The position numbers were made by a program, and so were the translations under genes. This document shows, in pieces, positions 7,036-60,187 of a stretch of DNA of 64,000 bases; within the stretch, counting starts at the first letter, position 1, and each line of letters starts with the position of its first letter. The notes under the pieces were generated by a model. That model saw nothing but the letters and a program-made list of their open reading frames with translations. It did no database searches and was not told where the DNA came from. This DNA comes from Candidatus Woesearchaeota archaeon (GTDB taxonomy: Archaea > Nanobdellota > Nanobdellia > Pacearchaeales > GW2011-AR1). The stretch is taken from positions 30,913 to 94,912 of the forward strand of contig CAYXNP010000002.1 of NCBI GenBank assembly GCA_964466575.1, read 5' to 3'.

Positions 7036-7041
7036 ATTAAA

Positions 7042-9692: not shown

Positions 9693-9810
9693 TTTTGTAT
9701 AGTTATGGAATCCTTTTTAAGCTTTATTTAGAAATGTTAACTAAATTGTATATTTTGAATATCATATTTTAGATAGATAAACCTTAAAAAACGCCTGACT
9801 TTCTGTCGTT

Positions 9811-18496: not shown

Positions 18497-20041
18497 ATGA
18501 GAATAATTCTTATATCGGCTGCGACGTTTCCGTCTGACCAAGGAATCAGAACTATTTCGGCAATTTTGAAAAAAGCTGGACACGACGTGAAAATCGTTTT
18601 TATGGCTTATTCAGAAGATTATTCCAAATTTTATCATAATAGGGAATTAAATCAATTAGTAAATATCTGCAAAAATGCAGATTTGATTGGAGTTAATTGT
18701 TATGTTTCGACTATGCCCCGAGCGATTCAAATTACAGGATTTTTGAAAAAGAAATTAAAAAAAGAAATTCCGATTGTTTGGGGTGGAATTCATCCGACGC
18801 TTTTTCCTCAAGATTGCATTAAATATGCAGACATTGTTTGCGTTGGCGACGGCGAAGATGCTGTTTTAGATTTGGCGAAGGCCATTGAAAATAAAAAACC
18901 AATTGATAAAATTCAAAACTTGTGGGTTAAAGATAAAAATGGTGAGATAGTAAAAAATCCTGTCCGTCCATTTATTGATAATCTTGATACTCTGCCTTTT
19001 GTGGATTACGATATAGAAGACCATTACATTTTGGAAAATCACAATTTGAGAAAATTTAAAGAAGAAGATTTGAATGGCCAAATATTCTTTTTGACAGGAA
19101 GGGGCTGTCCTTATGGCTGTACTTATTGCAGCAATAATCTTTTGAATGAGTTGTATAAAGGCAAATGCAAATCAATTGTAAGGTGGCACAGTGTCGACTA
19201 TATTATTGAGCATGTTTTATATTTAAAAAAACGATTTAAAACTTTGAGTTACTTTGATATTAGGGATGATACTTTTTCTTTGAGACCATTGAGCCAGATT
19301 CAGGAATTTTGTGAAAAGTATAAGGAAAAAGTTAATATGCGGTTCAAATGTCTTGGTGACCCGAAGACAATCTCTGAAGATAAAATTAAAGTTCTTGTCG
19401 ACGCTGGATGCACTGATATCATTATTGGAATCCAAGGCAATGAAAAAACTAACAGAGATATTTACAAAAGAGGGCAGACGAATGAACAAGTTTTGAAAGC
19501 CGGAAAAATTTTGAGTAAATACAAAAATAAATTGGCAGTGATGTATGATGTGATAACGTGCAATCCTTTTGAAGATGCGAAGGATGTAATTGACCTTATT
19601 CGACTTTTACAAATACTTCCTAAACCATATTATGTTTCTGTGAATAATCTGGTTTTTTTTCCTGGAACCGGCATTTATGAACGCGCCAAGATGAATCCTA
19701 AACTAAAAAAGATTGTTGAAGAAAGTTCTAAGTTAAATTATTGGGATAGGAATAAGCATATTTTATTGAAAAGGAAAGATATGTATCTTGTTTTGATTTT
19801 GAATTTAATGAGAGGTTCTGTGACTGAGAACAGATTTGGTTTAATGCCGAATAAATTAATTAATTATTTGTTAAAACCGTCGAGAATAAAATACAATTTA
19901 AATAATCCTGCTTTGACTTACATTGGATTGTCTTTTGTTAGTGTGATGGATTTAACGCGAGAAAGAATTGCGAAGCCGTTGTATCGTTCAACGCCGGTAA
20001 ATTTTAAAGTTTGGTATGATAAGATTCGTTATAGAGTTTAA
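18497..20041 (+). CDS. Class B (B12-binding domain) radical SAM enzyme.
   Basis: The N-domain reads IILISAATFPSDQG...VWGGIHPTLFP. GRGCPYGCTYCSNN is the CxxxCxxC motif. Confidence 0.85.
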   Translation: MRIILISAATFPSDQGIRTISAILKKAGHDVKIVFMAYSEDYSKFYHNRELNQLVNICKNADLIGVNCYVSTMPRAIQITGFLKKKLKKEIPIVWGGIHPTLFPQDCIKYADIVCVGDGEDAVLDLAKAIENKKPIDKIQNLWVKDKNGEIVKNPVRPFIDNLDTLPFVDYDIEDHYILENHNLRKFKEEDLNGQIFFLTGRGCPYGCTYCSNNLLNELYKGKCKSIVRWHSVDYIIEHVLYLKKRFKTLSYFDIRDDTFSLRPLSQIQEFCEKYKEKVNMRFKCLGDPKTISEDKIKVLVDAGCTDIIIGIQGNEKTNRDIYKRGQTNEQVLKAGKILSKYKNKLAVMYDVITCNPFEDAKDVIDLIRLLQILPKPYYVSVNNLVFFPGTGIYERAKMNPKLKKIVEESSKLNYWDRNKHILLKRKDMYLVLILNLMRGSVTENRFGLMPNKLINYLLKPSRIKYNLNNPALTYIGLSFVSVMDLTRERIAKPLYRSTPVNFKVWYDKIRYRV

Positions 20042-25020: not shown

Positions 25021-26481
25021 ATGAAAAGAAAGATTTATTTGGTTTATCCGCATGAAAAAACGCATTTTGTGCGGCTGTCTTTGTCTTTACTTAGTGTTGC
25101 GTCGACATTAGAGCCGGCTGGGTATGATGTTAAAATAATTGACATGAGATTTCAAGATCACTTGAAGGTTAATTTTTCAGATGCTCTTTTTGTTGGTTTG
25201 ACGAGTTTTACTGGAAGTAACTTGAAATCTGGATTAGAATTCTCAAGATATATCAAGAAAAAATATCCGAAGGTGCCGATTGTTTGGGGGGGTGTTCATG
25301 CTTCGATTTTGTCAATTCAGACAATTAGGAATGAGAATGTAGATATTATTGTTCGTGGCGAGGGCGACGTAACTGTTGTAGAGCTTGCTGATGCTTTATC
25401 TAAGGGAAAACCATTGAATAAAATAAATGGACTGACATTTAAAGATAAAGACGGCAAGATTGTTAATACGCCTGAAAGGGAATTTATTGATATGAATAAA
25501 CTGCCGAAGCCAGCATATCATCTTGTTGATTTGACTAAGGCTGAGACAACTCTTGGGCATTTTCCTTATAATGGGAGCCGAGGTTGTCCGCACAGATGCA
25601 AGTTTTGTTTTAATGTTAATTTTCATAAACGAAAATGGAGGGGAGTTACTGCTGAGAGAACTTTGGATGATATAGAGGATATAATTAGAGTTTCCGGAGC
25701 AAAGGGAATTGAATTTACAGAAGATAATTTTTTTACGAATAAGGAAAGGATTAGACAAATTGCGCAGGGTTTGATTGACAGGAAAATAAAAATTACTTGG
25801 GGGGCGGCTTGTCGAATGGATTATTTTGCTAAGTATGAAATTGAGTTTCTTAAGATGTTGAAGAGAAGTGGATTGGATTTAATGTCTGGCGGCGCAGAAT
25901 CAGGAAGTCAAAGAATTCTTGATTTGGTTGATAAGGATATAAAAGTTGAGGATACGATTGTTGCTGTTGCTAAGGCGAAAGAAGCGGGAATTATTCCGTG
26001 CTTGAGTTTTATTTATGGTGTTCCTAGTGAAACAAAAGAAGATGTTTTCAAGACGCTGAATTTGATTGATAAGTTAAAGAAAATAAATCCTGACACGCAG
26101 GTTAATGGAATTTTTGCGTTTACGATTTATCCTGGAGATCCGCTTGTTGAAGATTGTAAGAAGTTGGGATATAAAGAACCAAAGTCGTTGGAAGGTTGGG
26201 CGAATCATAATCTTTCTGATTTTAATACGCAGGTTTGGTTGAATAAAAAAGAGATTGCTTGGCTTGAGACGATTGGCGACATAATTCGGTTTGATTATTT
26301 TAATCAGACTGGAAGAGTTTATGATAATCTGAATGTGAAGTGGCATTATATTCCTTATTTGATTATGAGAGCTGTTTATACTGTTTCTGCGAGATTGAGA
26401 TGGAGACTAAGATATTTTCATCATGCATATGAATGGAGACTTTGGAGTTGGGTTAAGGAAAAGTATCTGGGGCATTTTTAG
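25021..26481 (+). CDS. Class B (B12-binding domain) radical SAM enzyme.
   Basis: The N-domain reads IYLVYPHEKT...VWGGVHASI. SRGCPHRCKFCFN is the CxxxCxxC motif. Confidence 0.85.
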   Translation: MKRKIYLVYPHEKTHFVRLSLSLLSVASTLEPAGYDVKIIDMRFQDHLKVNFSDALFVGLTSFTGSNLKSGLEFSRYIKKKYPKVPIVWGGVHASILSIQTIRNENVDIIVRGEGDVTVVELADALSKGKPLNKINGLTFKDKDGKIVNTPEREFIDMNKLPKPAYHLVDLTKAETTLGHFPYNGSRGCPHRCKFCFNVNFHKRKWRGVTAERTLDDIEDIIRVSGAKGIEFTEDNFFTNKERIRQIAQGLIDRKIKITWGAACRMDYFAKYEIEFLKMLKRSGLDLMSGGAESGSQRILDLVDKDIKVEDTIVAVAKAKEAGIIPCLSFIYGVPSETKEDVFKTLNLIDKLKKINPDTQVNGIFAFTIYPGDPLVEDCKKLGYKEPKSLEGWANHNLSDFNTQVWLNKKEIAWLETIGDIIRFDYFNQTGRVYDNLNVKWHYIPYLIMRAVYTVSARLRWRLRYFHHAYEWRLWSWVKEKYLGHF

Positions 26482-28616: not shown

Positions 28617-29264
28617 ATGGCATATAAGTTTTCACCATCTGGATTGAATTTATTTAAAGAATGCCCTCGCTGTTTTTGGCTGACGCATCATAAAATTTGG
28701 AAAAGACCACAAGGAATTTTTCCGAGCTTGCCGAGTGGCATGGACAAGATATTGAAAGTTCATTTTGATAAGTTCAGGGAGAAAGGAGAACTTCCTCCGG
28801 AATTAAAAAAGAATGGAGATTGTAAGAACATGAAACTTTTTGATAATCATGAACTTCTTGCGATATGGAGAAGCAACTTCAAAGGAATTTCTTACTCTGA
28901 TAAAGAGGGCAACATTCTCAAAGGTGCTGTAGATAATATCCTAATGAAAGGAAAGAAACTAATTGTTCTAGATTACAAAACACGAGGTTATGATTTGAAG
29001 GAAGATACACATGAACATTACCAAGACCAGCTTGATATATACAATTTCTTATTGAGAAAAAATGGATATCAAACTGAAGACTTTGCGTTTCTTTTGTTTT
29101 ACGTTCCAAAAGAGGTTTTGCCGACGGGAGAAGTTATATTTGACACCACTTTAAAGAAGATGAAGATTAATATAAAGAACGCTGAGAAAGTTTGGAGAAA
29201 TGCGTTGGAGATGTTGAAGGGAGAGTGTCCGGAAAGGGGATGTGAGTGGTGTGGGAAAGTATAA
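28617..29264 (+). CDS. Cas4-like / RecB-family PD-(D/E)xK nuclease with a 4-Cys cluster.
   Basis: One N-terminal Cys sits in ECPRCFW and three C-terminal Cys in CPERGCEWCGK. The core nuclease motif is ILMKGKKLIVLDYKT (D...DYK). The Cys layout matches Cas4/DUF83. Confidence 0.7.
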   Translation: MAYKFSPSGLNLFKECPRCFWLTHHKIWKRPQGIFPSLPSGMDKILKVHFDKFREKGELPPELKKNGDCKNMKLFDNHELLAIWRSNFKGISYSDKEGNILKGAVDNILMKGKKLIVLDYKTRGYDLKEDTHEHYQDQLDIYNFLLRKNGYQTEDFAFLLFYVPKEVLPTGEVIFDTTLKKMKINIKNAEKVWRNALEMLKGECPERGCEWCGKV

Positions 29265-29355
29265 AAGATTTTAGAAGGGGTTGTAGGAATTGTTCTTTTA
29301 GAATCGAAAAATTTATAAAGATGTAAGTACATGTAAGAACATAAAGATAAGGAAA

Positions 29356-29556
29356 ATGGGAAAAGACAGAAAACACATGAAAAAATTAAGAAAGAAGAGA
29401 ATAACATCAGTTAAAGAAAATATAGAGGAACATGAAGAAAAGATTCAAAAAGAAAAAGGCAGAAAAGATACGACTAAAGATTATTGGAGAAAGGAAATAG
29501 ATGAAAAATTTTTAAAACAAGTAAATGAAGACGAAGAGTATTTGGAGGAAAAATAA
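29356..29556 (+). CDS. Small, highly charged (K/E-rich) hypothetical protein of 66 aa.
   Basis: It lies 3 nt upstream of the next gene and is probably co-transcribed with it. No motif was found. Confidence 0.3.
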   Translation: MGKDRKHMKKLRKKRITSVKENIEEHEEKIQKEKGRKDTTKDYWRKEIDEKFLKQVNEDEEYLEEK

Positions 29557-29559
29557 AAA

Positions 29560-30342
29560 ATGGATGTACAAATAAAAAAAACAATTAAGGCAGGAAATTC
29601 TTCGGCAGTTGTGCTTCCAAGAGCATGGTTGAACAAGGAAGTAAGAATTGAGTTGGTAAAAAAAACACCAGAAATAATATTATATGATGTGCTTGAAATC
29701 TTAAAAAAGAACATTGATTTAGCATCAGTTATAGGCGTGTATTTAGTTGGAAGTTATGCAAGAGGAGAAGAAAACGAAAATAGCGACATAGATGTTTTAG
29801 TTATAACAAAAGCTATTGATAAAGAGATGATTAGCGAAGGAATATATAATTTATTAATAATCTCTCAGGAATTATTGCTTCAGAAATTAAACCATGACTT
29901 GTTTCCAATTGGACAGATGATAAAGGAGGCCGAGCCGCTCTTAAATTCCAACTATCTAAGCAGCATAGATGTTAAAGTAACTCAAAAAAATGTAAAATGG
30001 TATTTAGATACAACTAAAGAAAAATTAGAAATAATTCAGAAATATATTGAAGAGGCTAAAAGAAAAAATAAGAAATACCTTGAGGATAAAATTGCATATA
30101 CTCTTATCTTGAGAATACGGACACTTGAAATAATAAAAAATCTGGCAAAAAACAAGGATTACTCCAACAAAGATTTTTTGAGATTAATAAAAAGAATTTC
30201 AAATGGAAAGAACGTTTATGAAAGATATTTGGTTGTTAAAAACAACATGGAAGAAAAGAATGGAATAAGTATAGAAGAAGCTGAAAAATTATATGAATAT
30301 CTAAAAAAAGATTTGATTAAGGTTATTGGGATGGTGAGGTGA
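29560..30342 (+). CDS. Fusion of an AbrB/MazE-type swapped-hairpin DNA-binding domain, a minimal nucleotidyltransferase (MNT) and a helical C-terminal region.
   Basis: The N-terminus IKAGNSSAVVLPRAWL is the SpoVT/AbrB antitoxin signature. GVYLVGSYARGEENENSDIDVLVI is the GS-x9-DxD polymerase-beta-like NTase motif. Confidence 0.65.
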   Translation: MDVQIKKTIKAGNSSAVVLPRAWLNKEVRIELVKKTPEIILYDVLEILKKNIDLASVIGVYLVGSYARGEENENSDIDVLVITKAIDKEMISEGIYNLLIISQELLLQKLNHDLFPIGQMIKEAEPLLNSNYLSSIDVKVTQKNVKWYLDTTKEKLEIIQKYIEEAKRKNKKYLEDKIAYTLILRIRTLEIIKNLAKNKDYSNKDFLRLIKRISNGKNVYERYLVVKNNMEEKNGISIEEAEKLYEYLKKDLIKVIGMVR

Positions 30343-30411
30343 AAAGGGGGAGTGAAAATTGTCTTTGGGAGGAATAGAAAACCCTAAAAACTCTTTAAAC
30401 CCTTATAATCT

Positions 30412-31461
30412 ATGAGTAAAAGATATAAAATAGTTAAAAAAGAACAAGAAGGATTTAGACATAAAATCCCTATAGCTGGTGAAATGATCGAAGTATTAAG
30501 AGATGATTTAGATATCGACAAGATAAACTTAGACCCAGAAAATCCCCGTATTGGTTATTGGTCAGATAATCAGATCAAAAAAGAATTTTCACAAGATGAA
30601 ATAGCCTTTGCACTAAGGGAAAAATCAGATGATGTAAACCGATTGAAACTAAGTATAGAAATACATGAAGGAATAATGAATCCTATATGGATCTATAAAA
30701 AAGAGGGAAAATTTTTAGTGATAGATGGAAATACTCGTTTAGAAATCTTTAAGGATCTTAGAAGAAAATATCCTAATAAAGATAATTACAAGAAGATACC
30801 TTGTGAGATTCTTCCTGAGAATGTTGGAGAAAAGGTTAAAAATTTTATAAGACTTATGCAACATTTAAGGGGAGTTAATGATTGGGAAGTTTATGAAAGG
30901 GCAAGAATGTTATATATTTTATGGGACAAAAGAGGCTATACTGAAGAGGAATTGCAAAGCCAAACAAAACTTAATAAAAGTCAAATTAGGAGATGGATAG
31001 AGGCTTATAAAAATATGACTGAACAATTCCTTCCAGAATATGGATCACAAAATGATGCTTTGAGTAAATTTTCTTATTTTGTTGAATATGAAAATCCAAA
31101 AATTAAACAAGGTATGGAAGAAATTAAATTATCGATAAAAGATTTTTGTAAGTGGGTTGGTCTATCAGAAATTAAACGGGCACAAGATGTAAGAAATATC
31201 AAAAAAATATTCGAAGATAAAAAATCAACAGAAATATTAGTTAGAAGGGGATATAAATGTGCAATTGAAGAACTAAGTGTAGTAAAACCCGAAATTTCTT
31301 CTAAACTCTTTGAAGCAATAGAAGAGGTTTTAGATGGATTAAAAGAGATGACTCGAATGGAGGAGGAGGAAATAACCGATGGGGATTCTCCCCAAAAAAG
31401 AATTTTAATTAAGAATCTTTCTTTAGAACTTGAGAAAATGATAAATAAGTTCAAAGAGTAA
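30412..31461 (+). CDS. ParB/Sulfiredoxin-superfamily (ParB-like nuclease / DUF262-like) domain protein.
   Basis: INLDPENPRIGYW...IHEGIMNPIWIY...LVIDGNTRLEIF. The DGNTR motif occupies the position of DGQQR in DUF262, DGQHR in DndB and GERRxRA in ParB. The C-terminal 200 aa are unassigned. Confidence 0.6.
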   Translation: MSKRYKIVKKEQEGFRHKIPIAGEMIEVLRDDLDIDKINLDPENPRIGYWSDNQIKKEFSQDEIAFALREKSDDVNRLKLSIEIHEGIMNPIWIYKKEGKFLVIDGNTRLEIFKDLRRKYPNKDNYKKIPCEILPENVGEKVKNFIRLMQHLRGVNDWEVYERARMLYILWDKRGYTEEELQSQTKLNKSQIRRWIEAYKNMTEQFLPEYGSQNDALSKFSYFVEYENPKIKQGMEEIKLSIKDFCKWVGLSEIKRAQDVRNIKKIFEDKKSTEILVRRGYKCAIEELSVVKPEISSKLFEAIEEVLDGLKEMTRMEEEEITDGDSPQKRILIKNLSLELEKMINKFKE

Positions 31462-31462
31462 A

Positions 31463-31894
31463 ATGGCAACATCTAACTCCCATCAATTAATTCTTGGTTT
31501 AATAGCAAGAAGAATGAGAGAAAAGGGATATCTTGTTATTAGTTTTGATGGTCATGAATCTTTGATTGGAGATTTGTCATTAAATGCTCCAAAAAAAATA
31601 AAGAGACATAAGCCAGATTTGATCGGTATAAACTTGGAAGACAAAAGAATTTGTATTGGTGAGGCCAAAACTTCTTCCGATTTAAATTCAAAGAGAACTA
31701 AAGAACAATTCTTAGACTTTTCTTGTTTAATGACTAAATCTCAAAGATTATGTGAATTAATCATCGGAATCCCAAAATCATCAGAAAAGGAATTATTATA
31801 TCTGCTACAAAACTTAAAACTTTTAAATAAATCCAATATTTCCTATATCTGGATGCCTGATGATTTATTAGTTGAGGAAGAGAATGGAATTTAA
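31463..31894 (+). CDS. Small PD-(D/E)xK-fold nuclease-like protein.
   Basis: HKPDLIGINLEDKRICIGEAKT gives the PD...(E)xK arrangement. It is translationally coupled to its neighbours (2-nt gap upstream, 23-nt overlap downstream). Confidence 0.4.
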   Translation: MATSNSHQLILGLIARRMREKGYLVISFDGHESLIGDLSLNAPKKIKRHKPDLIGINLEDKRICIGEAKTSSDLNSKRTKEQFLDFSCLMTKSQRLCELIIGIPKSSEKELLYLLQNLKLLNKSNISYIWMPDDLLVEEENGI

Positions 31895-33311
31895 TTTTTC
31901 TTCAAAGACTTTAGCCATGCCCCATCAAATAGAAGCAATAGAATTTATTAAAGGTAATAAAAGCCTAGCGTTGTTTGATGAACAGGGTTTAGGTAAGAGC
32001 AAGATTGTTATATCTGCTCTTTGTGAAGACTTAAAGAATAAGATTATTGATTCGGTTTTGATTTTATGTAAAAAAACATTAGTGAAAACTTGGAAAAACG
32101 AGTTGCTAAAACATTCTTATCTAAAAACAAATGTTATTGTAGGGTCTAAGCAAAATAGGGGGAGATCTTTTATGCATTTTTCTCATTTTCATATTATAAA
32201 CTATGATTCTTTTGTTCAGGAGTTAGATAAAATTAAGCTTTTTTTAGGATTATATAAATTTGCAATTATTCTTGATGAATCACAAGTAATTAAAAATCCA
32301 TCGTCAAGAATAACAAAATCAGTTTTAGATATTAAGGATCTAGGGGTCAAAAGAATAATTATTACAGGTACTCCTATTGCAAACAAGCCAGAGGATTTGT
32401 GGTCTCAGTTTTATTTTTTGGATAACGGGGAAACACTAGGGAAAGATTTTAAGGAGTTTCAGAAAAAGTTTCGAATACAATTAAAAGGTGAAACTTCTTT
32501 AAAAAAATATGAAAACATTTTAGATTCAATTAAGCAAAAGATAAACAAAATATCAATTAGAAGAACAAAAAATGTCCTAGAATTACCAGAAAAATTATAT
32601 CGTGAAGTTTTTGTAGTTCTTGAGAAAGAACAAAAAAGAATGTATGAAAAATTAAGGGGGGAATTATACTTAGAACTTAAAGATATTGATGACAATTTAA
32701 TATTAGAAAAAATAGATAATTACCTAGTTAAATTATTGAGATTAACTCAAATAGCAAGTAACCCTTCACTTTTAGAAGAAGGATATAAAGATACGCCTGC
32801 AAAATTTAAAGAACTAGACAAATTAATAAAAGATATTCTAGATAAAAATGAAAAAGTCATAATTTGGACAAGTTTTAGAGGAAATATAAGAACTCTAAGA
32901 AAAAGGTATCAGGATTATGGAGCTCTTATGCTCTTTGGAGAAATTCCAATGGCTGAAAGAGATGATATCATAGAAAAGTTTATGCAAAATCTAGAAATTA
33001 AGATATTAATAGCTAATCCATCTGCCGCAAAAGACGGGTTGACTCTTACATCAGCGAATAATGTCATATATCTTGATAGAAGTTTTAAAATGGACGATTA
33101 TCTTCAATCGCAAGATCGCATACATAGGATAGGTCAACAAAAAAAGTGTCAGATTATTAAATTAATAGCAAAAGATACTATCGACGAATATACTGATGAA
33201 ATACTTGAAAAGAAACATTTATTAGCACAATTTGCTCTTGGAGATACAGATCATATTCATGAAAGAAATAAATTTTTAACTAAGGACGAGCTACTAAAGA
33301 TTTTAGGATAA
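31872..33311 (+). CDS. Compact SNF2-family (SWI2/SNF2) helicase/translocase.
   Basis: The Q-region is AMPHQIEAI, motif I is DEQGLGKSK, motif II is ILDESQVIKN and motif VI is QSQDRIHRIGQQKKCQIIKL. At 479 aa it carries both RecA-like lobes. Confidence 0.8.
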   Translation: MRKRMEFNFSSKTLAMPHQIEAIEFIKGNKSLALFDEQGLGKSKIVISALCEDLKNKIIDSVLILCKKTLVKTWKNELLKHSYLKTNVIVGSKQNRGRSFMHFSHFHIINYDSFVQELDKIKLFLGLYKFAIILDESQVIKNPSSRITKSVLDIKDLGVKRIIITGTPIANKPEDLWSQFYFLDNGETLGKDFKEFQKKFRIQLKGETSLKKYENILDSIKQKINKISIRRTKNVLELPEKLYREVFVVLEKEQKRMYEKLRGELYLELKDIDDNLILEKIDNYLVKLLRLTQIASNPSLLEEGYKDTPAKFKELDKLIKDILDKNEKVIIWTSFRGNIRTLRKRYQDYGALMLFGEIPMAERDDIIEKFMQNLEIKILIANPSAAKDGLTLTSANNVIYLDRSFKMDDYLQSQDRIHRIGQQKKCQIIKLIAKDTIDEYTDEILEKKHLLAQFALGDTDHIHERNKFLTKDELLKILG

Positions 33312-33315
33312 GAAT

Positions 33316-34431
33316 ATGGAAGAAAAAAATTATATTAATCTAGGAGGAGAAAAAATTCTCGTAAAGACTGAAATGATAGATATTTTTAAATTGAAGTATT
33401 ATCCAGAGAATCCGAGAATACTATCTATTATAAAACAAAATCCAGAAATCAAAAAGGACGAAAAGCTAATAGAAGAAAAGTTGTGGGATGATGATGATAC
33501 CCATAAATTATTTCGAAGTATAGAACACCATGGCGGATTAATAAATCCAATAATAGTGCATGATAATTATGTTCTTGAAGGGAATACTAGATTGTGTTGT
33601 TTTAGAAGATTATATGCGCAAAATAAAGAAGATAAGTGGAAATTTATTAGATGTGAGGTTTTATTAATAAAAAAATTACCAAAAGAAAAAATAGATATAT
33701 TATTAGGAAATGAGCATATAATAGGCAAAATAGAATGGAATACTTATGAAAAGGGGTGTTGGATGACAAAGATGTTGAAAGAAGATGATTATGGTATAGA
33801 TAAGATCAAGGAAATAGTTGGTAATTCTGAAATATGGATCAAACAGCAGATCTCAGCTTATGAAATTATGGTAAAAGAAAAAATAAATGATAATAAAAAG
33901 TTTAGCCACCTCGTTCAATTAGTCTCAAATGATCAGATTAGACAAATAGAAAAAAATAAAGACCCTAAAATAAAAGAGAAGATCATTAAGGCTATTAAAA
34001 ATGACCAATTTAAAACTGCGCATGATATACGTAAAATTCCCGTAGTTTATGAAGACAAGGAATCCAGAAAAAGGCTTTTTGAATATGGTGAATCTATTGA
34101 GCAGATATTTTATGACTTAAAATCTGAACATCCAACTCGTGGTTCTCCATTTATTCGTGTAGTTGAAGATTTAACGCAAAGAGCTAGCGAATTAACTAGA
34201 AAAGAAAGAGCAGAAATAGCAGAAGATATAGCACAAAAGGATAAAATAAAAAGATTAGCATGCGAATTAAAGAAACTCTGTTCAGAATTAAAAAAAGAGG
34301 GTTTATCTAAAATAGATGAGAAAATAAGAGGGATAAAAATACTAAAAATTGTTGGAAAAGCTAAAGAAGAGGATTTAAAAAAATTGGAAAGAGAAAAAGA
34401 AAATTTGGAAAAAGAAGAGTTTTTGGAATAG
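33316..34431 (+). CDS. Second ParB-like (DUF262-like) domain protein, paralogous to 30412-31461.
   Basis: LKYYPENPRIL...HHGGLINPIIVHDNYVLEGNTRLCCF has the same motif order as the first copy. The C-terminus is a K/E-rich coiled coil. Confidence 0.6.
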   Translation: MEEKNYINLGGEKILVKTEMIDIFKLKYYPENPRILSIIKQNPEIKKDEKLIEEKLWDDDDTHKLFRSIEHHGGLINPIIVHDNYVLEGNTRLCCFRRLYAQNKEDKWKFIRCEVLLIKKLPKEKIDILLGNEHIIGKIEWNTYEKGCWMTKMLKEDDYGIDKIKEIVGNSEIWIKQQISAYEIMVKEKINDNKKFSHLVQLVSNDQIRQIEKNKDPKIKEKIIKAIKNDQFKTAHDIRKIPVVYEDKESRKRLFEYGESIEQIFYDLKSEHPTRGSPFIRVVEDLTQRASELTRKERAEIAEDIAQKDKIKRLACELKKLCSELKKEGLSKIDEKIRGIKILKIVGKAKEEDLKKLEREKENLEKEEFLE

Positions 34432-34501
34432 GATTCTTGTTTAATTAATCACCCTAAAGTGATCAGAGATCTTTAAAAAGATCACTTTCTTTATACTTTT
34501 A

Positions 34502-35842
34502 ATGAAAAAAAGAGTATTACTTGTTGAGCCAGACTTTCCTTATCCTAATAGATCTAAAAATAGGGCAAATGATATTCATAAAAATTTTGTTCCAATTGGA
34601 TTATTAAAATTAGGTTCATTAAACAAGGCGAAGGGCAATTCAGTCAAACTAGTGAGGGGAAAAGTAAAGAAAGAAGAAATTGGTTTTATTCCAGATGAAA
34701 TTTTAATTACATCAATGTTTACTTATTGGTCAAATTATGTATGGGGGTGTGTTGAACATTATAGAAATTTATTTCCAAAAAAAAATATTTGGATTGGAGG
34801 GATTTATGTTACATTACACCATAACCAAGAAAAATTTAAGGATTTAACAAAAAGAAATAAAGTTAAATTTTTTGTAGGGGTTCATAATGAAGCAGAGAAT
34901 TTTTTACCTGATTATAGTTTAATTCCTCCCGTAGAATATCATGCAACCCATATTATGAGGGGATGTATAAGAAAATGTGATTTTTGTGGTGTTTGGAAGT
35001 TAGAACCAAAACTTAGTTTTAAAACATTAGAACAACTAAAAAAAGAATTAGATGGTGTTGGCAAGAATAATGTAATCTTTTTTGATAATAATTTCTTTGC
35101 AAATCCAAAGATTAAGGATATTCTAAAAAATCTAGCAGAGATAAGAATAAATGGTAAGCCAGTAACTTTTGAATCACAAAGTGGATTTGATGGTAGATTA
35201 CTAGAAAAAGATCCAGAACTCGCCATCCTGTTGAAGAAAGCAAGATTCAATAATGTGAGGATTGCATGGGATAATAGTGTTAAAGATAAAAAATCAATTA
35301 AAAAGCAAATTGATTTACTTAAGAGTGCGGAATATCCTTTAAAAGATATTTCTATTTTCATGATATATAATTTTGATGTTCCCTATGAAGAAATGATTAA
35401 AAAGTTAAATTTATGTAAAAAATGGGGTGTGCAAATAATAGATTGCAGATATAGGCCATTAGATTTAGATTATGATAATTATAGCCCCCACATGAGAAAA
35501 GGTCAACCAGAAGGAAGTTTTTACATTCACAAAAAAGCTGGCTGGACTGATAAAAAAATTAGGGATTTTAGAAGAAAGGTCCGGCAACAAAATATGGAAA
35601 TTAGATATGCTAATGGGGGAAAATATGATAAAAATATGGAAAAATGGAGTGCGATTCATAATACTTATAAATTTTTTAAATTAGGTCCACCACCCCTTTT
35701 AGAAAAAATTGATAAAAGTGACAAATTAAAAAAAAGGATCTTAATGTTAAACAAATTAAAGAATGATTATAAAAAGAAAGGAATTGGGAAAAAAGATTTA
35801 AGCAAGCTTTCTAAAAAAGAATTGGATGAATTTATTGGTTGA
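34502..35842 (+). CDS. Radical SAM enzyme with an N-terminal B12-binding-like Rossmann domain.
   Basis: VLLVEPDFPYPN...IGLLKLGS...IWIGGIYVTLH is the B12-domain-like region. HIMRGCIRKCDFCGVW is a CxxxCxxC motif near residue 155. The motif position makes QueE or viperin unlikely. Confidence 0.7.
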   Translation: MKKRVLLVEPDFPYPNRSKNRANDIHKNFVPIGLLKLGSLNKAKGNSVKLVRGKVKKEEIGFIPDEILITSMFTYWSNYVWGCVEHYRNLFPKKNIWIGGIYVTLHHNQEKFKDLTKRNKVKFFVGVHNEAENFLPDYSLIPPVEYHATHIMRGCIRKCDFCGVWKLEPKLSFKTLEQLKKELDGVGKNNVIFFDNNFFANPKIKDILKNLAEIRINGKPVTFESQSGFDGRLLEKDPELAILLKKARFNNVRIAWDNSVKDKKSIKKQIDLLKSAEYPLKDISIFMIYNFDVPYEEMIKKLNLCKKWGVQIIDCRYRPLDLDYDNYSPHMRKGQPEGSFYIHKKAGWTDKKIRDFRRKVRQQNMEIRYANGGKYDKNMEKWSAIHNTYKFFKLGPPPLLEKIDKSDKLKKRILMLNKLKNDYKKKGIGKKDLSKLSKKELDEFIG

Positions 35843-35908: not shown

Positions 35909-36064
35909 TCAAATAAAATATCTAGCAAGCCATCCAACTTGTAACAGGACTCCTAAAAACAAAAGCATACCTGCTCCTGCAATTCCCAATAACCAACCAA
36001 TGCCTCCAAATGCAAGCAAAATTGATGGTGGATTTTTTGCAATTATATAAATTAATGTATTCAT
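35909..36064 (-). CDS. Unannotated 51-aa hydrophobic glycine-zipper membrane peptide.
   Basis: Manual minus-strand translation gives MNTLIYIIAKNPPSILLAFGGIGWLLGIAGAGMLLFLGVLLQVGWLARYFI. A strong SD (aaggaggt) lies 8-10 nt upstream of the ATG. It falls below the ORF-track length cut-off. Confidence 0.45.
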   Translation of the reverse strand: MNTLIYIIAKNPPSILLAFGGIGWLLGIAGAGMLLFLGVLLQVGWLARYFI

Positions 36065-36255
36065 CTTATTCTAAACCTCCTTATACCTATCTACTCTTCT
36101 CAAGAATTCTCGAGTTTCGACCGAGTAAGCCGACCCCTTTTTTATTGAACAAAAACAAACAAATAAAAATTTCTAGACCTTCAGAAATTAATACATACAA
36201 ATAATTTGCATAGGAATGTTATATGTTCCCCAATCCTTTCCCCAACCCCCACACC

Positions 36256-36285
36256 CACTCAACTCCTCCCCAACCTATAACTTCC
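36256..36285. repeat. Direct repeat copy 1 (cactcaactcctccccaacctataacttcc), 30 bp.
   Basis: An exact 30-nt match to 37104-37133, found by eye. Confidence 0.8.
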
Positions 36286-36356
36286 ATCCTTCGGCAAATC
36301 TTTTATTTTCATCCTCTTCTCAAGAACTCTTCAATTATTAATATTTCTATATCCAA

Positions 36357-36725
36357 TCACTCACTAGAAAGTATCAAAGGACTGACGTATTCAGATTTTC
36401 TTAATGGTGGCATCGGTTGAACGAATTGCTTGCCTTTAGATTTCAGATTAACTAAAATTATCCATTGATTTCTAAATGATTTATAATCTAACCAAGCTTC
36501 ATCAAGTTGAGAAAGAAATTCCCTATCTATTTCTGAATTGAACGCTCCTAAAAACTCACTGGCATCCATAATTTCTATTCCATTAACTCTTTCATCTTTA
36601 TCTAAATCCAAAACAATATTCTCTGATACCTCTACACTTTCTTCCACACCTCTGTCAGAATTATAAATAGCTAAAATATCGTACTCATCATCATATAAAA
36701 ATTTGTATACCATAATTTTATTCAA
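36357..36725 (-). CDS. DUF2283-like small protein, a putative antitoxin partner.
   Basis: YDDEYDILAIY resembles the YDxEADxLYI signature of DUF2283. It lies 7 nt downstream of the 36732-37058 ORF on the same strand. Confidence 0.5.
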   Translation of the reverse strand: MNKIMVYKFLYDDEYDILAIYNSDRGVEESVEVSENIVLDLDKDERVNGIEIMDASEFLGAFNSEIDREFLSQLDEAWLDYKSFRNQWIILVNLKSKGKQFVQPMPPLRKSEYVSPLILSSE

Positions 36726-36731
36726 TATTCT

Positions 36732-37058
36732 TTAATTTATAAATCTTTTTTTCTTGTATTTTAATAAAGTTTTTCTTCCCAAAGGATAGGCAGTTATAAT
36801 CCTTATCTTATCTAAGAAAGTAATAGCATATACACGACCTTTCTTTTTTGAGTAAGCATAAAACAAAGCATATCTTATTTCATTAGTTTTATATTGCTTT
36901 TCTGTAAATATCAAGTCTTTATTAAGAAATAAATCCTCTATAATCTCTTCTTTGGTTGCACTTATTCTCTCTAAAAGGTAATTCTCATCCTTGCCAAAAA
37001 TAACCTCTTTATCAGAATATTTTTTGAGCAATTCTTTAACCTCTTTAGTGTAGTCCAT
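36732..37058 (-). CDS. Putative toxin, BrnT/DUF4258-like, paired with the DUF2283-like gene.
   Basis: RVYAITFLDKIRIITAYPLGRK resembles the C-terminal ...IRIISARkA motif of BrnT-type RNase toxins. The assignment is tentative. Confidence 0.35.
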   Translation of the reverse strand: MDYTKEVKELLKKYSDKEVIFGKDENYLLERISATKEEIIEDLFLNKDLIFTEKQYKTNEIRYALFYAYSKKKGRVYAITFLDKIRIITAYPLGRKTLLKYKKKRFIN

Positions 37059-37103
37059 TAATGAATGTGTTTATTAATATATTAAAGTCTTTTCCTCTAT
37101 CAC

Positions 37104-37133
37104 CACTCAACTCCTCCCCAACCTATAACTTCC
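37104..37133. repeat. Direct repeat copy 2, overlapping the 3' end of the minus-strand ORF 37107-37316.
   Basis: An exact 30-nt match to 36256-36285. Confidence 0.8.
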
Positions 37134-37316
37134 TTCTTCTTTCTCCTCCCTATAACCCGGATCTTGAACTTCCCTCATATGTTGTATCTTTTCACTTCCG
37201 CAGATGCTGCATTTGTAAATGTCGAAGACTTTAATGCCGTCTTGTAAAGCAGGCTCGACATATTCATGGAGTGTTTGCTTCCGATATGTTATGCAAAATA
37301 ATTCTTCTAGATTCAT
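37107..37316 (-). CDS. Small Cys-containing (Zn-ribbon-like, CSICGSEK) hypothetical protein. Its last nine codons are supplied by repeat copy 2.
   Basis: The ORF alone. The motifs are C-x28-CxxC. This may not be a real gene. Confidence 0.25.
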   Translation of the reverse strand: MNLEELFCITYRKQTLHEYVEPALQDGIKVFDIYKCSICGSEKIQHMREVQDPGYREEKEEGSYRLGRS

Positions 37317-37398: not shown

Positions 37399-38862
37399 CT
37401 AATATTTTCGTCTTGGTTTCTGGCTAAAATTATTTTGCCTTGAATTTCCTCTTCCTTGAAAATTTCCCCTCGATGGTCCCTGATTAGATTGATTACTTCC
37501 TTGATATCCTTTACTAGATTGGTTTCCTCTTGAATATCCACCAGATGATTGATTACTTCTTGGTGCCCTTGAATATCCTCTGCTGCTTCCAGAATTTCCT
37601 CGTGACTGAAAGTTTCCTCTCGATTGTCCTCTGCTATTTCCTCTAAATTGAAAATTTCCTCTCGACTGATTTCCCCTTTGAGAAAAACCCCTTCCTTTTC
37701 TTATTAATTCTGTATTAACTCTAATCATATCGAATTTGTGAAGCTTGACTTCTTTTATTTTAATATGTTCGTCTTCGAGGATTTTGTTGAAGTTGTCGTA
37801 ATCGCGGTTTGATAAAAGACTTATTGCTATTCCTTCTTCGCCTGCTCTTGCTGTTCTGCCTATTCTGTGAATGTATTCGTCGCTTGTTTTTGGCAAATCG
37901 TAATTGTAAACATGGCTCACGCCTTTTATGTCGAGTCCTCTTGCAGCGACGTCTGTGCAAACCAAAACTGTTACACCCTTTCCGTGGAATTCACTTAAAA
38001 CTCTTAATCGCTTTTTTTGCTCCATTCCGCCGTGAATTGCCTTCGCTGTTATTCTATTTAGATTTAAATTATTTGCGACGAAATCAGCGTTGTTTCTTGT
38101 GCTGCAAAAAACCATTACTAAATCTGAAACTTCTTCTCTCAATAAATGAACTAATAAAGAAAATTTCATGTGGCTCTCGACGTTGTAAAAAATTTGTTTT
38201 AGCTTTGCCGGGTCAACGTGCGATTTGACTGCGACTTCAGCTGGATTTTTTGTGTGCTTTTTTGCTAAATGGTCGATGTTCGGAGAAATTGTAGCAGAGA
38301 ACATCATAGTTTGTCTTTTTTGCGGGCATTGCGAAATTATTTTTTCCACGTCTTTATGGAATCCCATGTCAAACATTCTGTCTACTTCGTCTAATACTAA
38401 AAATTTAACATTGCTTAAATTTAAACTGCCTCTTTGCATATGGTCTAATATTCTTCCAGGAGTTCCGACAATGACATCTGTTTGAGGGATTCTTCTTGTT
38501 TGATTTTGCATGTCGACGCCGCCATAAATTGCCAAGAAATTCAGAGGTTTATTTTTAGAGAATTGTTTTATTGAAGCTAAAACTTGTTCGGCGAGTTCTC
38601 TAGTTGGAGTTAAGATTAGCGCTTGAACTTTATTGTTTGGTTTTAGGTTCTCAATTATCGGAACCGAGAATACTAAAGTTTTTCCGCTTCCCGTCGCTGA
38701 ACCGCCAATTATATCTTTTCCAGCTAGCGCTAAGGGAATGGCTTTTTCCTGAATCTCGGTTGGTTCATCAAATCCAAGACTCTGCAAGACATCCAAAATA
38801 TTCTTACTTAATCCAAGTTCCTTAAAGTTTTTCATTTCAAGAAATAAATTCCTGAGCTGCAA
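37399..38862 (-). CDS. DEAD-box ATP-dependent RNA helicase with a roughly 100-aa C-terminal RGG/SRGN low-complexity tail.
   Basis: Motif I is GSATGSGKT, Ia is PTRELA, II is DEVD (a DEAD variant), III is SAT and VI is HRIGRTARAG. The C-terminus carries RGNQSRGNFQFRGNSRGQSRGNFQSRGNS repeats. Confidence 0.9.
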   Translation of the reverse strand: MQLRNLFLEMKNFKELGLSKNILDVLQSLGFDEPTEIQEKAIPLALAGKDIIGGSATGSGKTLVFSVPIIENLKPNNKVQALILTPTRELAEQVLASIKQFSKNKPLNFLAIYGGVDMQNQTRRIPQTDVIVGTPGRILDHMQRGSLNLSNVKFLVLDEVDRMFDMGFHKDVEKIISQCPQKRQTMMFSATISPNIDHLAKKHTKNPAEVAVKSHVDPAKLKQIFYNVESHMKFSLLVHLLREEVSDLVMVFCSTRNNADFVANNLNLNRITAKAIHGGMEQKKRLRVLSEFHGKGVTVLVCTDVAARGLDIKGVSHVYNYDLPKTSDEYIHRIGRTARAGEEGIAISLLSNRDYDNFNKILEDEHIKIKEVKLHKFDMIRVNTELIRKGRGFSQRGNQSRGNFQFRGNSRGQSRGNFQSRGNSGSSRGYSRAPRSNQSSGGYSRGNQSSKGYQGSNQSNQGPSRGNFQGRGNSRQNNFSQKPRRKY

Positions 38863-59764: not shown

Positions 59765-60187
59765 ATGAATAACAAGGAATTAGGAAATATGGGAGAAAAA
59801 GAAATCGTTAGTTTAGTTGCTTGTCCTAATTGTAAAAACAAACTCATGCGACTTCCTCTTAATTATCCCCTTGTAGATATTCAATGTAGCGCTTGTTATT
59901 TTAGGGCACAAGTAAAGACAGTGAATTCTTCTCCAAAAAATATCTCTTTTGGTGCTGGATGGGAAATAATGAATAAAGTTTTGAAATCTGGGTATATGGT
60001 TCCGCCGACTTTTTTTAATTTTAAATGGAATGATGGAAAAAGTCAAGAAATAAGGTTTTATCCATTCATACCAAGAATTAATTTAAGAAAATATCAACTT
60101 TCAAAAAAAGCAAGAAGAGCCAATTACAAAATGTTTCATTATATAGGTTTAGATGACTTACCATTTTTTATAGTTTTCGAGAAATAA
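59765..60187 (+). CDS. Hypothetical protein with a Zn-ribbon (CPNC...CSAC).
   Basis: The ORF and its four-Cys motif. Confidence 0.3.
   Translation: MNNKELGNMGEKEIVSLVACPNCKNKLMRLPLNYPLVDIQCSACYFRAQVKTVNSSPKNISFGAGWEIMNKVLKSGYMVPPTFFNFKWNDGKSQEIRFYPFIPRINLRKYQLSKKARRANYKMFHYIGLDDLPFFIVFEK

What the first reader, a model, noticed from the sequence alone, without database searches (positions are those of the whole stretch)
36256..37133. 30-bp perfect direct repeats bracketing a toxin/antitoxin-like cassette, with one copy forming the 3' end of a small ORF
cactcaactcctccccaacctataacttcc occurs at 36256-36285 and 37104-37133, and nowhere else that I could see. The roughly 820 bp between the copies carry a DUF2283-like gene and a BrnT/DUF4258-like gene on the minus strand. 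Copy 2 supplies the last nine codons of the minus-strand ORF 37107-37316. This is the pattern left by site-specific insertion into a gene's 3' end with duplication of the target. It looks like a mobile mini-cassette or defense-island hotspot, with no integrase left.
Basis: seen in the sequence. Interest (0 to 1): 0.6.

Follow-up and report, generated by a model that had tools for sequence, protein, structure and literature searches.

The report
Duplicated boundary of a toxin-antitoxin slot
The 30-base repeat is real: it marks a spot in an uncultivated groundwater archaeon where small toxin-antitoxin gene pairs are swapped and stacked by recombination, which is a tidy but fairly ordinary case of genome shuffling and needs no dedicated mobile element.

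Summary
**Observation.** Confirmed. An exact 31-nt direct repeat (called S here) lies at 36255-36285 and 37103-37133 and occurs nowhere else in the window.

**What S is.** The left copy is the dispensable 3' tail of a lineage-specific zinc-ribbon ORF. The right copy is fused in frame to the first 9 codons of a dead radC gene. That radC fragment and its ~55-nt upstream region (R) travel with the two-gene module.

**The module.** A 108-aa protein with a RelE/BrnT-like predicted fold sits next to a DUF2283 protein.

**Related groundwater contigs show:**
- A single-S allele without the module (L017).
- A stacked allele, S-TA-R|S-M-R, in which both S and R are duplicated and M is a second ParE-like two-gene module (L046, L048).
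- A second, different radC'|S-like joint (L014).
- Sharp mosaic identity: the module is 99.6% identical between two contexts, next to about 86% in the small ORF.

**What was not found.**
- No recombinase family among the ORFs scanned in the 64 kb.
- No attC-like hairpin.
- No S or R around the same gene pair in other genomic contexts.

**Reading.** S is the duplicated left boundary of a cassette slot. It most likely arose by homology-anchored illegitimate or unequal recombination at GGAAG microhomology, not by integrase-mediated target duplication. The hotspot idea is supported; the site-specific mechanism is not. Moderate interest.

The parts
37103..37133 (-). A 31-nt repeat read on the minus strand as GGAAGTTATAGGTTGGGGAGGAGTTGAGTGG. 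It encodes the last 8 codons plus the stop of the small ORF.
36255..36285 (-). It is fused in frame to 9 radC codons. Homology between the window and L021 ends exactly at 36255.
37107..37316 (-). Small ORF of 69 aa, a lineage-specific zinc-ribbon-like protein (CxxC...CxxC in relatives; CITY...CSIC here). Only its core is conserved. The tail encoded by S is missing or replaced in L017, L018 and P0105.
37053..37097 (-). P: an A/T-rich TATA-like stretch (GAAAAGACTTTAATATATT) about 25 nt upstream of the ATG of the 108-aa gene. Read as an archaeal promoter by inference only.
36732..37058 (-). 108-aa putative toxin with a RelE/BrnT-like predicted fold. It belongs to a small family that is always paired with a DUF2283 gene.
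36357..36713 (-). DUF2283 protein, 118 aa from the ATG (the mechanical ORF from TTG runs to 36725). Putative partner or antitoxin.
36286..36356 (-). R: the radC upstream region plus the first 9 radC codons (ATG at 36312). The resulting 17-codon ORF 36259-36312 ends inside S copy 1.
36228..36256 (-). G-run tract GGGTGTGGGGGTTGGGGAAAGGATTGGGG abutting S copy 1. It is the only G-quadruplex-like motif (loops of 9 nt or less) in the 64 kb.
36094..36106 (-). R'': a 13-nt exact remnant (TTCTTGAGAAGAG) of the radC upstream region, 220 nt downstream of the first R and just upstream of the 51-aa gene. It marks the end of a second, now empty, slot unit.
35909..36064 (-). 51-aa hydrophobic ORF forming the right flank of the slot in this strain.
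37399..38862 (-). DEAD-box helicase with an RGG/SRGN-rich tail. It is the conserved left flank, shared with the single-S alleles L017, L018 and L019.

Best explanation
The two 31-nt copies (S) are the duplicated left boundary of a small cassette slot. The organism is probably a Pacearchaeota-like DPANN archaeon from groundwater.

**The slot.** It lies between the 3' tail of a lineage-specific zinc-ribbon ORF (S) and the promoter and 5' end of a now-dead radC gene (R). Different strains carry different two-gene toxin-antitoxin-like modules in it. One is TA, the 108-aa RelE/BrnT-like protein plus DUF2283. The other is M, a 71/85-aa protein plus a 116-aa ParE/YoeB-like protein.

**How the window's arrangement arose.** The order is S - promoter - TA - R(9 codons) | S - 150 nt - R remnant. 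An S-TA-R allele was joined through a GGAAG microhomology, shared by radC codons 8-10 and the small-ORF tail, to the S of a second allele. The likely route is incoming or sister DNA anchored by homology in the small ORF or helicase on the left, with an illegitimate or unequal crossover on the right. This is homology-facilitated illegitimate recombination, equivalent to unequal crossing-over between alleles.

**Consequences.** The event stacked the TA module in front of a second copy of the slot boundary. It left S duplicated and radC truncated. Later, ordinary homologous recombination shuffled the pieces among strains, including exchange that ends exactly at S.

**Shown and inferred.**
- Shown: the anatomy, the allelic series, the duplicated S and R, the microhomology, and the mosaic identity.
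- Inferred: the direction of the event, its mechanism, and the toxin-antitoxin function.
For: 1. **S is fused to a radC fragment.** S copy 1 follows 9 radC codons. In L014 the same ORF runs on as MKIKDLPKEGRPRERFLEKG..., whose only Pfam hit is the RadC N-terminal domain UPF0758_N, positions 1-20, E=2.7e-4. In L048 a 30-codon version reads [30 protein letters not shown].
2. **Both S and R are duplicated in stacked alleles.** L046 and L048 have the order S-TA-R9|S'-M-R30.
3. **M is a discrete unit.** Its homology to another context (L038, 77% identity) is bounded exactly by R on one side and by S' plus 16 nt on the other.
4. **A single-S allele exists.** L017 has helicase | small ORF | one S | M, with no TA module. 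L018 and L019 lack S altogether.
5. **The joint is a microhomology.** The radC side reads ...GG(A/T)GGAAG| and the small-ORF side reads ...GAAGGAAG|.
6. **There is a second, different joint.** In L014 and L047, radC codon 20 is joined to an S-like GGGAGG/GATGAGGG tract.
7. **Identity is mosaic.**
   - Window against L014: 34 differences in the first 250 columns but 3 in the next 700 (Fisher p=1e-17).
   - L012 against the window: 13 of 17 mismatches fall within 66 nt of the small ORF.
8. **S and R belong to the locus, not the cassette.** The 108-aa/DUF2283 pair in other contexts (type I restriction-modification operon L022-26; L027) has no S or R nearby.
9. **No dedicated machinery was found.** There is no recombinase or transposase family in precomputed Pfam within 10 kb either side or in 40 further window ORFs. 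The S regions form no hairpin (z from -0.67 to +0.94).
10. **The window keeps an R remnant.** A 13-nt piece sits 220 nt beyond the first R. The chance expectation for that is about 6e-4.
Against: - No true empty allele of the window's own right flank was found. Every contig that carries the 51-aa gene and reaches far enough upstream also has radC'+S.
- The polarity is not proven. L017 could be a deletion between S copies rather than an ancestral empty site.
- The R9|S joint is identical in contexts A and B'. It therefore counts as one event, so exact reuse of a site cannot be tested.
- Homology between the window and L021 ends precisely at the end of S. That is also what a site-specific crossover inside S would give.
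- No full-length radC with the R upstream region was recovered, so the proposed parent S-TA-R-radC is inferred.
- Nothing is known about recombination pathways or DNA uptake in this organism.
- It is not known whether contexts A and B sit in one genome or in two.
Confidence: 0.6

Rival explanations
1. Integrase-mediated site-specific integration. S is the core of an att site in the 3' end of the small ORF. A circular cassette [S-P-TA-R9] was inserted by a tyrosine or serine recombinase encoded elsewhere, or since lost, and this duplicated the 31-nt core.
For: - Perfect 31-nt direct repeats flank the module.
- A single-S allele exists (L017).
- The same module lies behind small-ORF homologues in two contexts.
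- Homology between the window and L021 stops exactly at the end of S.
- The TA segment is nearly identical (99.6%) between contexts whose small ORFs differ by about 14%.
Against: - No recombinase was found within 10 kb either side or among the 40 further ORFs scanned elsewhere in the 64-kb window.
- S has no dyad symmetry or hairpin, and no inverted repeats sit at the cassette ends.
- The cassette carries a gene fragment (radC') whose upstream region is also duplicated in L046 and L048. An att model does not predict this.
- L014 has a different joint.
- M is bounded by S on one side only.
- The TA pair elsewhere lacks S.
- S is absent from viral contigs and from GTDB representative genomes.
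Confidence: 0.15
2. The two-copy state is older. The single-S alleles (L017, L018) are secondary deletions by recombination or slippage between S-like G/A-rich repeats. On this view the repeats mark a deletion-prone tandem duplication of the slot and not an insertion. It differs from the best explanation only in polarity.
For: - The small-ORF tail shows a nested deletion series. L048 has S' plus 16 nt, L017 has 27 nt of S, and L018 keeps only GGAAG plus 11 nt.
- The G-rich tract is slippage-prone and is the only G4-like motif in the window.
Against: - A deletion between the two S copies of an L046-like allele would give S-M, which is what L017 shows, so this cannot be excluded.
- It still needs a prior event to create the R9|S joint.
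- The radC fragments of 9, 20 and 30 codons point to repeated insertion or truncation at the right boundary.
Confidence: 0.15
3. S is a functional sequence element selected at the 3' ends of genes, such as an RNA stability or termination signal, a G-quadruplex, or a protein-binding site. On this view its two copies reflect function rather than recombination history.
For: - S is G-rich in a genome of 31% G+C and lies beside the only G4-like motif in the window.
- Both copies sit at ORF 3' ends.
Against: - There are only two copies in 64 kb, and none in large public collections outside this population.
- There is no Rfam match and no predicted structure beyond shuffled controls.
- S is truncated or missing in close relatives without loss of the small ORF core.
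- The right copy closes a 17-codon radC remnant that is very unlikely to be functional.
Confidence: 0.05
4. Assembly artefact: a misjoin or chimera at a short repeat.
For: - Logan contigs break exactly at the repeat. L006 ends at the left copy, and L032 and L033 start at the right copy.
- L008 has a different left junction.
Against: - Over a dozen independent assemblies from different samples and assemblers, with k=127 or 141 (longer than 31), give the identical 2.3-kb arrangement.
- Breaks at a 31-nt repeat are expected for a short-k graph (Logan's k is from my own knowledge, not checked here).
Confidence: 0.02

Closest known systems
Homology-facilitated illegitimate recombination (HFIR) arrays, such as the orphan immunity-gene arrays in Vibrio cholerae type VI secretion clusters and the orphan Rhs/CDI toxin tips (Kirchberger et al. 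2017, PMC5361080, read; it cites de Vries & Wackernagel 2002 and Prudhomme et al. 2002)
   Same: - A conserved upstream gene serves as the homologous anchor.
- A new toxin/immunity-type module is added at a fixed slot.
- Older content is pushed downstream.
- Truncated gene fragments and duplicated boundary sequences are left at the joints.
- No integrase is involved.
   Different: - This is an archaeal (DPANN-like) population.
- The modules are type II toxin-antitoxin-like pairs, not secreted effectors.
- The anchor is a 69-aa ORF.
- The mechanism here is inferred from sequence only.
Minimal mobile elements of Neisseria: alternative gene cassettes between conserved flanking genes, exchanged by homologous recombination. 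The term appears in 25 papers; the description is from my own knowledge.
   Same: - Alternative small cassettes (TA, M, or none) occupy one chromosomal slot defined by conserved flanks.
- Identity patterns are mosaic, implying flank-mediated exchange.
   Different: - The flanks here are themselves partly duplicated (S and R) and one of them is decayed (radC).
- Natural transformation is not known for this organism.
Integron gene cassettes, including TA cassettes in chromosomal superintegrons
   Same: - Small modules, often toxin-antitoxin pairs, stacked head to tail.
- A short repeated sequence at each boundary.
- New cassettes displace older ones.
   Different: - There is no IntI.
- No attC-like imperfect hairpin was found.
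- The module appears to carry its own TATA-like promoter.
- The boundary repeat is a piece of neighbouring genes.
Integrative elements that target the 3' end of a gene and duplicate the att core (tRNA- or gene-3'-end-specific islands)
   Same: - An exact direct repeat in which one copy completes the target ORF.
- An empty-site-like allele in relatives.
   Different: - No integrase was found.
- The 818-bp payload is far smaller than known integrative elements.
- A second boundary element (R) is duplicated as well.
- There is a variable second joint (L014).
BrnT/BrnA and RelE-superfamily type II toxin-antitoxin modules. The DUF4258-DUF2283 pairing is from my own knowledge and could not be verified in the paper library.
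   Same: - Two small, co-oriented, tightly spaced genes, with the toxin-like gene first as in brnTA.
- The predicted fold of the 108-aa protein matches TA toxins best.
- The partner is a DUF2283 protein.
   Different: - The BrnT Pfam score is below the cut-off.
- There is no NCBIfam or PADLOC hit.
- The partner is not the RHH protein BrnA.
- The one paper read here on DUF2283 assigns the domain to FseA, an ICE excision activator, and notes weak similarity in the antiactivator QseM. Neither is an antitoxin (PMC4755241).

Membership tests
Type II toxin-antitoxin module (RelE/BrnT superfamily toxin) | Two small adjacent co-oriented genes forming an operon, conserved as a pair across contexts | tested here: met
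   The 108-aa and DUF2283 genes lie 6-18 nt apart. The pair is conserved at 50-65% identity inside a type I restriction-modification operon (L022-26) and in L027.
Type II toxin-antitoxin module (RelE/BrnT superfamily toxin) | The toxin belongs to a recognised toxin family by sequence | tested here: not met
   Pfam BrnT_toxin scores 17 bits against a cut-off of 34.5, E=0.0075. No DUF4258 hit was listed in Pfam down to E=0.1, and there is no NCBIfam or PADLOC hit. There is no PDB sequence hit.
Type II toxin-antitoxin module (RelE/BrnT superfamily toxin) | Toxin fold (RelE/BrnT/MqsR-like alpha/beta fold) | tested here: inconclusive
   The AlphaFold model has pLDDT 89.6. Best Foldseek matches are a Salmonella TA-complex chain 7vd7_A (E=4.9e-3, TM 0.52/0.58), BrnT 3u97 (TM 0.45/0.59) and MqsR 3hi2_D (TM 0.51/0.59). 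No match reaches E<=1e-3.
Type II toxin-antitoxin module (RelE/BrnT superfamily toxin) | Toxicity of one product, neutralised by the other | not testable with these tools
   Needs expression experiments.
Integron gene cassette | An attC site: an imperfect inverted repeat that folds as a single-stranded hairpin at the cassette end | tested here: not met
   Four DNA folds of about 140 nt, covering both S regions on both strands, gave z-scores from -0.67 to +0.94 against shuffles, with no hairpin.
Integron gene cassette | An IntI integrase with attI next to the array | tested here: not met
   No recombinase family appears in precomputed Pfam within 10 kb either side or in 40 further ORFs of the window.
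Integrative element with att duplication | An identical core repeat at both ends, one copy completing the target gene | tested here: met
   31/31 nt are identical, and the left copy ends the small ORF.
Integrative element with att duplication | The element encodes, or lies next to, an integrase or excisionase | tested here: not met
   The 818-bp insert holds only the two small genes and the radC fragment.
Integrative element with att duplication | The att core travels with the element into independent sites or contexts | tested here: not met
   The same gene pair in L022-26 and L027 has no S or R nearby. S is absent from viral contigs and GTDB representative genomes.
HFIR / unequal-recombination product at a cassette slot | A homologous anchor on one side of the acquired DNA | tested here: met
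   The small ORF, with the helicase in context A, is shared by all alleles at 84-100% identity.
HFIR / unequal-recombination product at a cassette slot | A short microhomology at the novel joint, with a truncated foreign gene fragment | tested here: met
   GGAAG (up to GAAGGAAG) is shared by radC codons 8-10 and the small-ORF tail. radC is cut after 9 codons. A second joint at a GGGAGG/GAGG microhomology follows codon 20 in L014.
HFIR / unequal-recombination product at a cassette slot | Both slot boundaries are duplicated when two alleles are stacked | tested here: met
   L046 and L048 have the order S-TA-R9|S'-M-R30. In the window the second R is reduced to a 13-nt remnant.
HFIR / unequal-recombination product at a cassette slot | Direct observation of the recombination event, or of DNA uptake in the organism | not testable with these tools
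   The organism is uncultivated. Only population snapshots are available.
Transposon with target-site duplication | Terminal inverted repeats and a transposase, with a short (2-14 bp) target-site duplication | tested here: not met
   There are no inverted repeats at the ends of the 818-bp segment and no transposase. The duplication is 31 bp.

The most novel reading that the evidence does not exclude
S, possibly together with R (about 110 nt as an R|S composite), may be a genuine recombination site. A trans-acting enzyme, or the unique G-quadruplex-prone tract beside it, would use the site to load and stack small toxin-antitoxin cassettes behind the zinc-ribbon ORF. That would be an integron-like cassette platform in DPANN archaea with no attC hairpins and no linked integrase.
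Probability: 0.1. Interest if true: 0.75.

Novelty: new member of a known kind. Interest (0 to 1): 0.35.

Why it matters
- It gives a nucleotide-level view of how the small genomes of uncultivated DPANN-type archaea gain, stack and lose toxin-antitoxin modules. The process uses a fixed slot, short G/A-rich microhomologies and frequent homologous exchange between co-existing strains, with no mobile-element machinery.
- Perfect direct repeats around a small cassette need not mean an integrase. Here the radC fragment and the second duplicated boundary give the history away.
- It defines two small uncharacterised protein families with toxin-like predicted folds as candidates for experiments. One is the 108-aa partner of DUF2283. 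The other is the 116-aa ParE-like protein, which is widespread in Pacearchaeota and Nanoarchaeota metagenome-assembled genomes.

Tried and rejected
- **Exact 30-mer scans** of GTDB representative genomes and JGI metagenome contigs gave 0 hits. A degenerate S scan of viral contigs gave 0. An R-pattern scan of GTDB genomes gave 0. A 108-aa profile search of viral contigs found no relatives. There is therefore no evidence that a virus, plasmid or other genome carries S.
- **tRNA and Rfam scans** of the window found nothing. S is not a tRNA-derived att site or a known RNA.
- **attC-like folding** was rejected.
- **Recombinase search.** No recombinase or transposase family was found within 10 kb either side or in 40 other ORFs.
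- **Empty site with the window's own right flank.** A look-up of the 51-aa flank protein found none. All informative contigs carry radC'+S.
- **Full-length radC with the R upstream region.** None was found. Only 9-, 20- and 30-codon fragments exist in the data.
- **Small-ORF function.** The family is tiny: 5 clusters at 90% identity and 2 real clusters at 50% identity among 1.84 billion representatives. It has no Pfam assignment.
- **Literature.** No paper links DUF2283 with DUF4258 as a TA pair in the library.
- **Discarded queries.** A fuzzy-regex search timed out and was replaced by blastn-short. In one search, the second query peptide was partly my own construct and is not used as evidence.
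Full report
**1.

- The 30-mer occurs exactly twice, at 36256-36285 and 37104-37133. There are no further copies with up to 3 mismatches, and none in 100 shuffles.
- The repeat is 31 nt exact, or 34 nt with one mismatch.
- The genes here run on the minus strand. Read that way, the repeat (S) is GGAAGTTATAGGTTGGGGAGGAGTTGAGTGG.
- The left copy encodes the last 8 codons and the stop of a 69-aa ORF at 37107-37316.
- Between the copies lie a 108-aa gene (36732-37058) and a DUF2283 gene (36357-36713; Pfam E=1.7e-13).

**2. Organism and surroundings**

- The window has 31% G+C.
- It is dominated by glycan-biosynthesis genes: glycosyltransferases, B12-binding radical-SAM enzymes and an STT3/AglB homologue.
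- Identical or near-identical contigs come from aquifer groundwater metagenomes.
- Homologues of a neighbouring-module protein are labelled Candidatus Pacearchaeota or Nanoarchaeota in NCBI metagenome-assembled genomes.
- I therefore infer a Pacearchaeota-like DPANN archaeon.
- No tRNA or Rfam family is present in the window.
- No integrase, transposase or other recombinase family appears within 10 kb either side (precomputed Pfam). None appears among the 40 further ORFs I scanned.

**3. The two cassette proteins**

- The 108-aa protein belongs to a small family of 15 clusters that is always followed by a DUF2283 gene.
- Its BrnT Pfam hit is sub-threshold, and there are no NCBIfam or PADLOC hits.
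- A confident AlphaFold model (pLDDT 89.6) has TA toxins as its best PDB matches: 7vd7_A, BrnT 3u97 and MqsR 3hi2_D. TM scores are about 0.5-0.6, and no match reaches E<=1e-3.
- 'Toxin-antitoxin-like' is therefore a reasonable but unproven label.
- The one paper I read on DUF2283 assigns the domain to FseA, an ICE excision activator. It notes only weak similarity in the antiactivator QseM (PMC4755241).

**4. Comparative evidence: an allelic series**

The same 2.3-kb arrangement is found at 99.3-100% identity in over a dozen independent assemblies. This excludes an assembly artefact. Related but different alleles are informative:

| Allele | Arrangement |
|---|---|
| L017 | Same helicase flank, small ORF, one S-like copy (27/30 nt). 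It is followed directly by the 3' end of a convergent 116-aa gene and has no TA module. |
| L018, L019 | As L017, but the small-ORF tail is different and S is absent. |
| L014, L015, L020, L047 | A different genomic context (Lhr helicase, ParE/DUF7557). It has a 71-aa small-ORF homologue, an S-like sequence and the same TA module. A 27-codon ORF follows, MKIKDLPKEGRPRERFLEKGRDEGEII. |
| L021, L046, L048 | Small ORF - S - TA - R(9 radC codons)\|S' - 16 nt - module M (116-aa plus 71-aa genes, opposite strand) - R again - a 30-codon radC fragment. An unrelated membrane-protein gene and a DNA methylase follow. |

- In the L014 group, the only Pfam hit of the 27-codon ORF is the RadC N-terminal domain (UPF0758_N, positions 1-20, E=2.7e-4).
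- In the stacked alleles, the 30-codon radC fragment reads [30 protein letters not shown]. The second R is 98% identical to the first over 59 nt.
- In these alleles both the left boundary (S) and the right boundary (R, the radC upstream region plus start) are duplicated.
- M is a discrete unit. Its homology to a copy in a PCNA/primase context (L038, 77% identity) runs from exactly the edge of R to exactly the TTAATTAG that follows S' plus 16 nt.
- The 116-aa protein of M has a confident model (pLDDT 89.5). Its best PDB match is a YoeB/ParE toxin (6n90_A, probability 0.99, TM 0.49/0.60). Its small partner gene overlaps it by 1 nt (L038, 5744-6001 and 6001-6351). M is therefore probably a second TA-like module.

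**5. The joints**

- At the R9|S joint the radC side reads ...GCCGAAGG(A/T)(A/T)GGAAG and the small-ORF side reads ...GAAGAAGGAAG.
- The two parents therefore share GGAAG, or up to GAAGGAAG if the parent radC resembled L014.
- L014 has a different joint. radC codon 20 (...AAAGGGAGG) is joined to GATGAGGGAGAG plus a TATA-like stretch. That sequence resembles the region just downstream of S in the same context.
- radC is therefore known only as fragments of 9, 20 and 30 codons, each cut by different DNA.
- The window retains a 13-nt exact remnant of R (TTCTTGAGAAGAG, 36094-36106). It lies 220 nt beyond the first R and just before the 51-aa gene. A chance occurrence that close is expected at about 6e-4.
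- The window therefore reads S-P-TA-R9|S-(150 nt)-R''-flank, parallel to S-P-TA-R9|S'-M-R30 in L048.

**6. Recombination mosaic**

- **Window against L014:** 34 differences in the first 250 columns (small ORF and promoter) but 3 in the next 700 (both TA genes and R). Fisher p=1e-17.
- **L014 against L021:** identical in the small ORF and the 108-aa gene, but 29 differences across the three 100-column blocks (601-900) that span the DUF2283 gene.
- **L012 against the window:** 13 of 17 mismatches fall within 66 nt of the small ORF.
- **Window against L021:** homology ends exactly at the last base of S (36255).
- Homologous exchange among co-existing strains is evidently frequent, and S has served as an end-point of exchange at least once.

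**7. Interpretation**

The simplest account of all the features is a cassette slot between the small-ORF tail (S) and radC (R), holding TA, M or little. The window's duplication was produced when an S-TA-R allele was joined, at GGAAG microhomology between radC codons 8-10 and the small-ORF tail, to the S of another allele. This is either an unequal crossover between alleles or homology-anchored illegitimate recombination of incoming DNA. It explains several things at once:
- why the insert carries a radC fragment;
- why R as well as S is duplicated;
- why the joint is a microhomology;
- why a second, different joint exists;
- why S and R do not accompany the TA pair in other contexts (L022-26 and L027).

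The closest described process is the HFIR model for orphan immunity-gene arrays in V. cholerae T6SS clusters and for Rhs loci (PMC5361080). Neisseria minimal mobile elements are a further analogue (description from my own knowledge).

**8. Rivals**

- **Site-specific integration with an integrase in trans.** This cannot be excluded. The repeats are perfect, a single-S allele exists, and exchange ends at S. But no recombinase was found, there is no dyad or hairpin, and the duplicated R, the variable joint and the absence of S around the pair elsewhere all argue against it. I give it 0.15.
- **Reversed polarity.** Single-S alleles may be deletions between repeats. This remains open (0.15) but still needs the same founding joint.
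- **A functional element.** Unlikely (0.05). S is dispensable in relatives and unique to this population.
- **Artefact.** Excluded in practice.

**9. Limits**

- No empty allele with the window's own right flank was found.
- No full-length radC with R was found.
- It is unknown whether contexts A and B share a genome.
- TA function is untested.
- All mechanistic steps are inferred from static sequences.

**10. Verdict**

This is a new member of a known kind of event, documented at unusual resolution in an uncultivated archaeal population. Interest is 0.35.

Noticed in passing
window 36228-36271 (minus strand): The only G-quadruplex-like motif in the whole 64-kb window abuts and overlaps S copy 1. 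With loops of 9 nt or less it is GGGTGTGGGGGTTGGGGAAAGGATTGGGG; with loops up to 12 nt it extends into S. The genome has 31% G+C. It could make this spot fragile or recombinogenic.
   Followed up: partly
window 28617-35842 (plus strand): A cluster convergent on the slot looks defence-like. It holds a PDDEXK_1 nuclease, an NTP_transf_2 protein, two ParB-like proteins (weak PADLOC PDC-M38A hits), an SNF2 helicase matching ZorD/DpdE helicase models (E=1e-60) and a radical-SAM protein. In strain L012 the gene calls across the SNF2 region differ (73 + 371 aa instead of 475 aa).
   Followed up: partly
window 37399-37700 (minus strand): The DEAD-box helicase ends in a long RGG/SRGN-rich low-complexity tail built from imperfect 38-60-nt DNA repeats. 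This tail is the most indel-rich part of the helicase between strains (L017, L018: 85% identity with 12-13 gaps).
   Followed up: no
window 37281-37292 (small ORF codons 9-12): In this strain and in L012 the first zinc-ribbon knuckle reads CITY instead of CITC/CRTC as in the other alleles. One of the four cysteines is lost, so the small ORF may be decaying in context A.
   Followed up: partly
L008 1-226 (joins the window sequence at 37365): One scaffold (ANAN16-1 scaffold_44406) carries unrelated sequence in place of the helicase, about 50 nt upstream of the small ORF. This is either a further rearrangement at the slot's left side or a scaffolding chimera.
   Followed up: no
L014/L021 about 9076-9565 (context B): In the second context, a ParE toxin gene and a DUF7557 gene, another TA pair, lie immediately upstream of the small ORF on the opposite strand. 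The small ORF therefore has TA modules on both sides there.
   Followed up: no
L022-L026 (about 3174-12152): A 65%-identical copy of the 108-aa/DUF2283 pair sits inside a type I restriction-modification operon, directly after hsdR and before hsdS, a SLFN/AlbA_2 ATPase and hsdM. A full-length radC lies at the far end on the opposite strand.
   Followed up: no
window 36211-36225: An inverted partial copy of the first 14 nt of S (GGAATGTTATATGTT, one extra base and one mismatch against GGAAGTTATAGGTT) lies 44 nt beyond S copy 1 and brackets the G-run tract. The predicted pairing is no better than in shuffled sequence, so it may be chance.
   Followed up: partly
window 59765-60187: A 140-aa ORF matches the DpnI (Dam-replacing) restriction endonuclease family over most of the catalytic domain (E=1.1e-8). 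No methylase partner was noticed nearby.
   Followed up: no
window 1-26500: There is an unusually dense set of B12-binding radical-SAM genes (4239-5705, 9811-11196, 18497-20041, 25021-26481). Other radical-SAM genes include a glycosyltransferase-radical-SAM fusion (7665-9692), all interleaved with glycosyltransferases.
   Followed up: no
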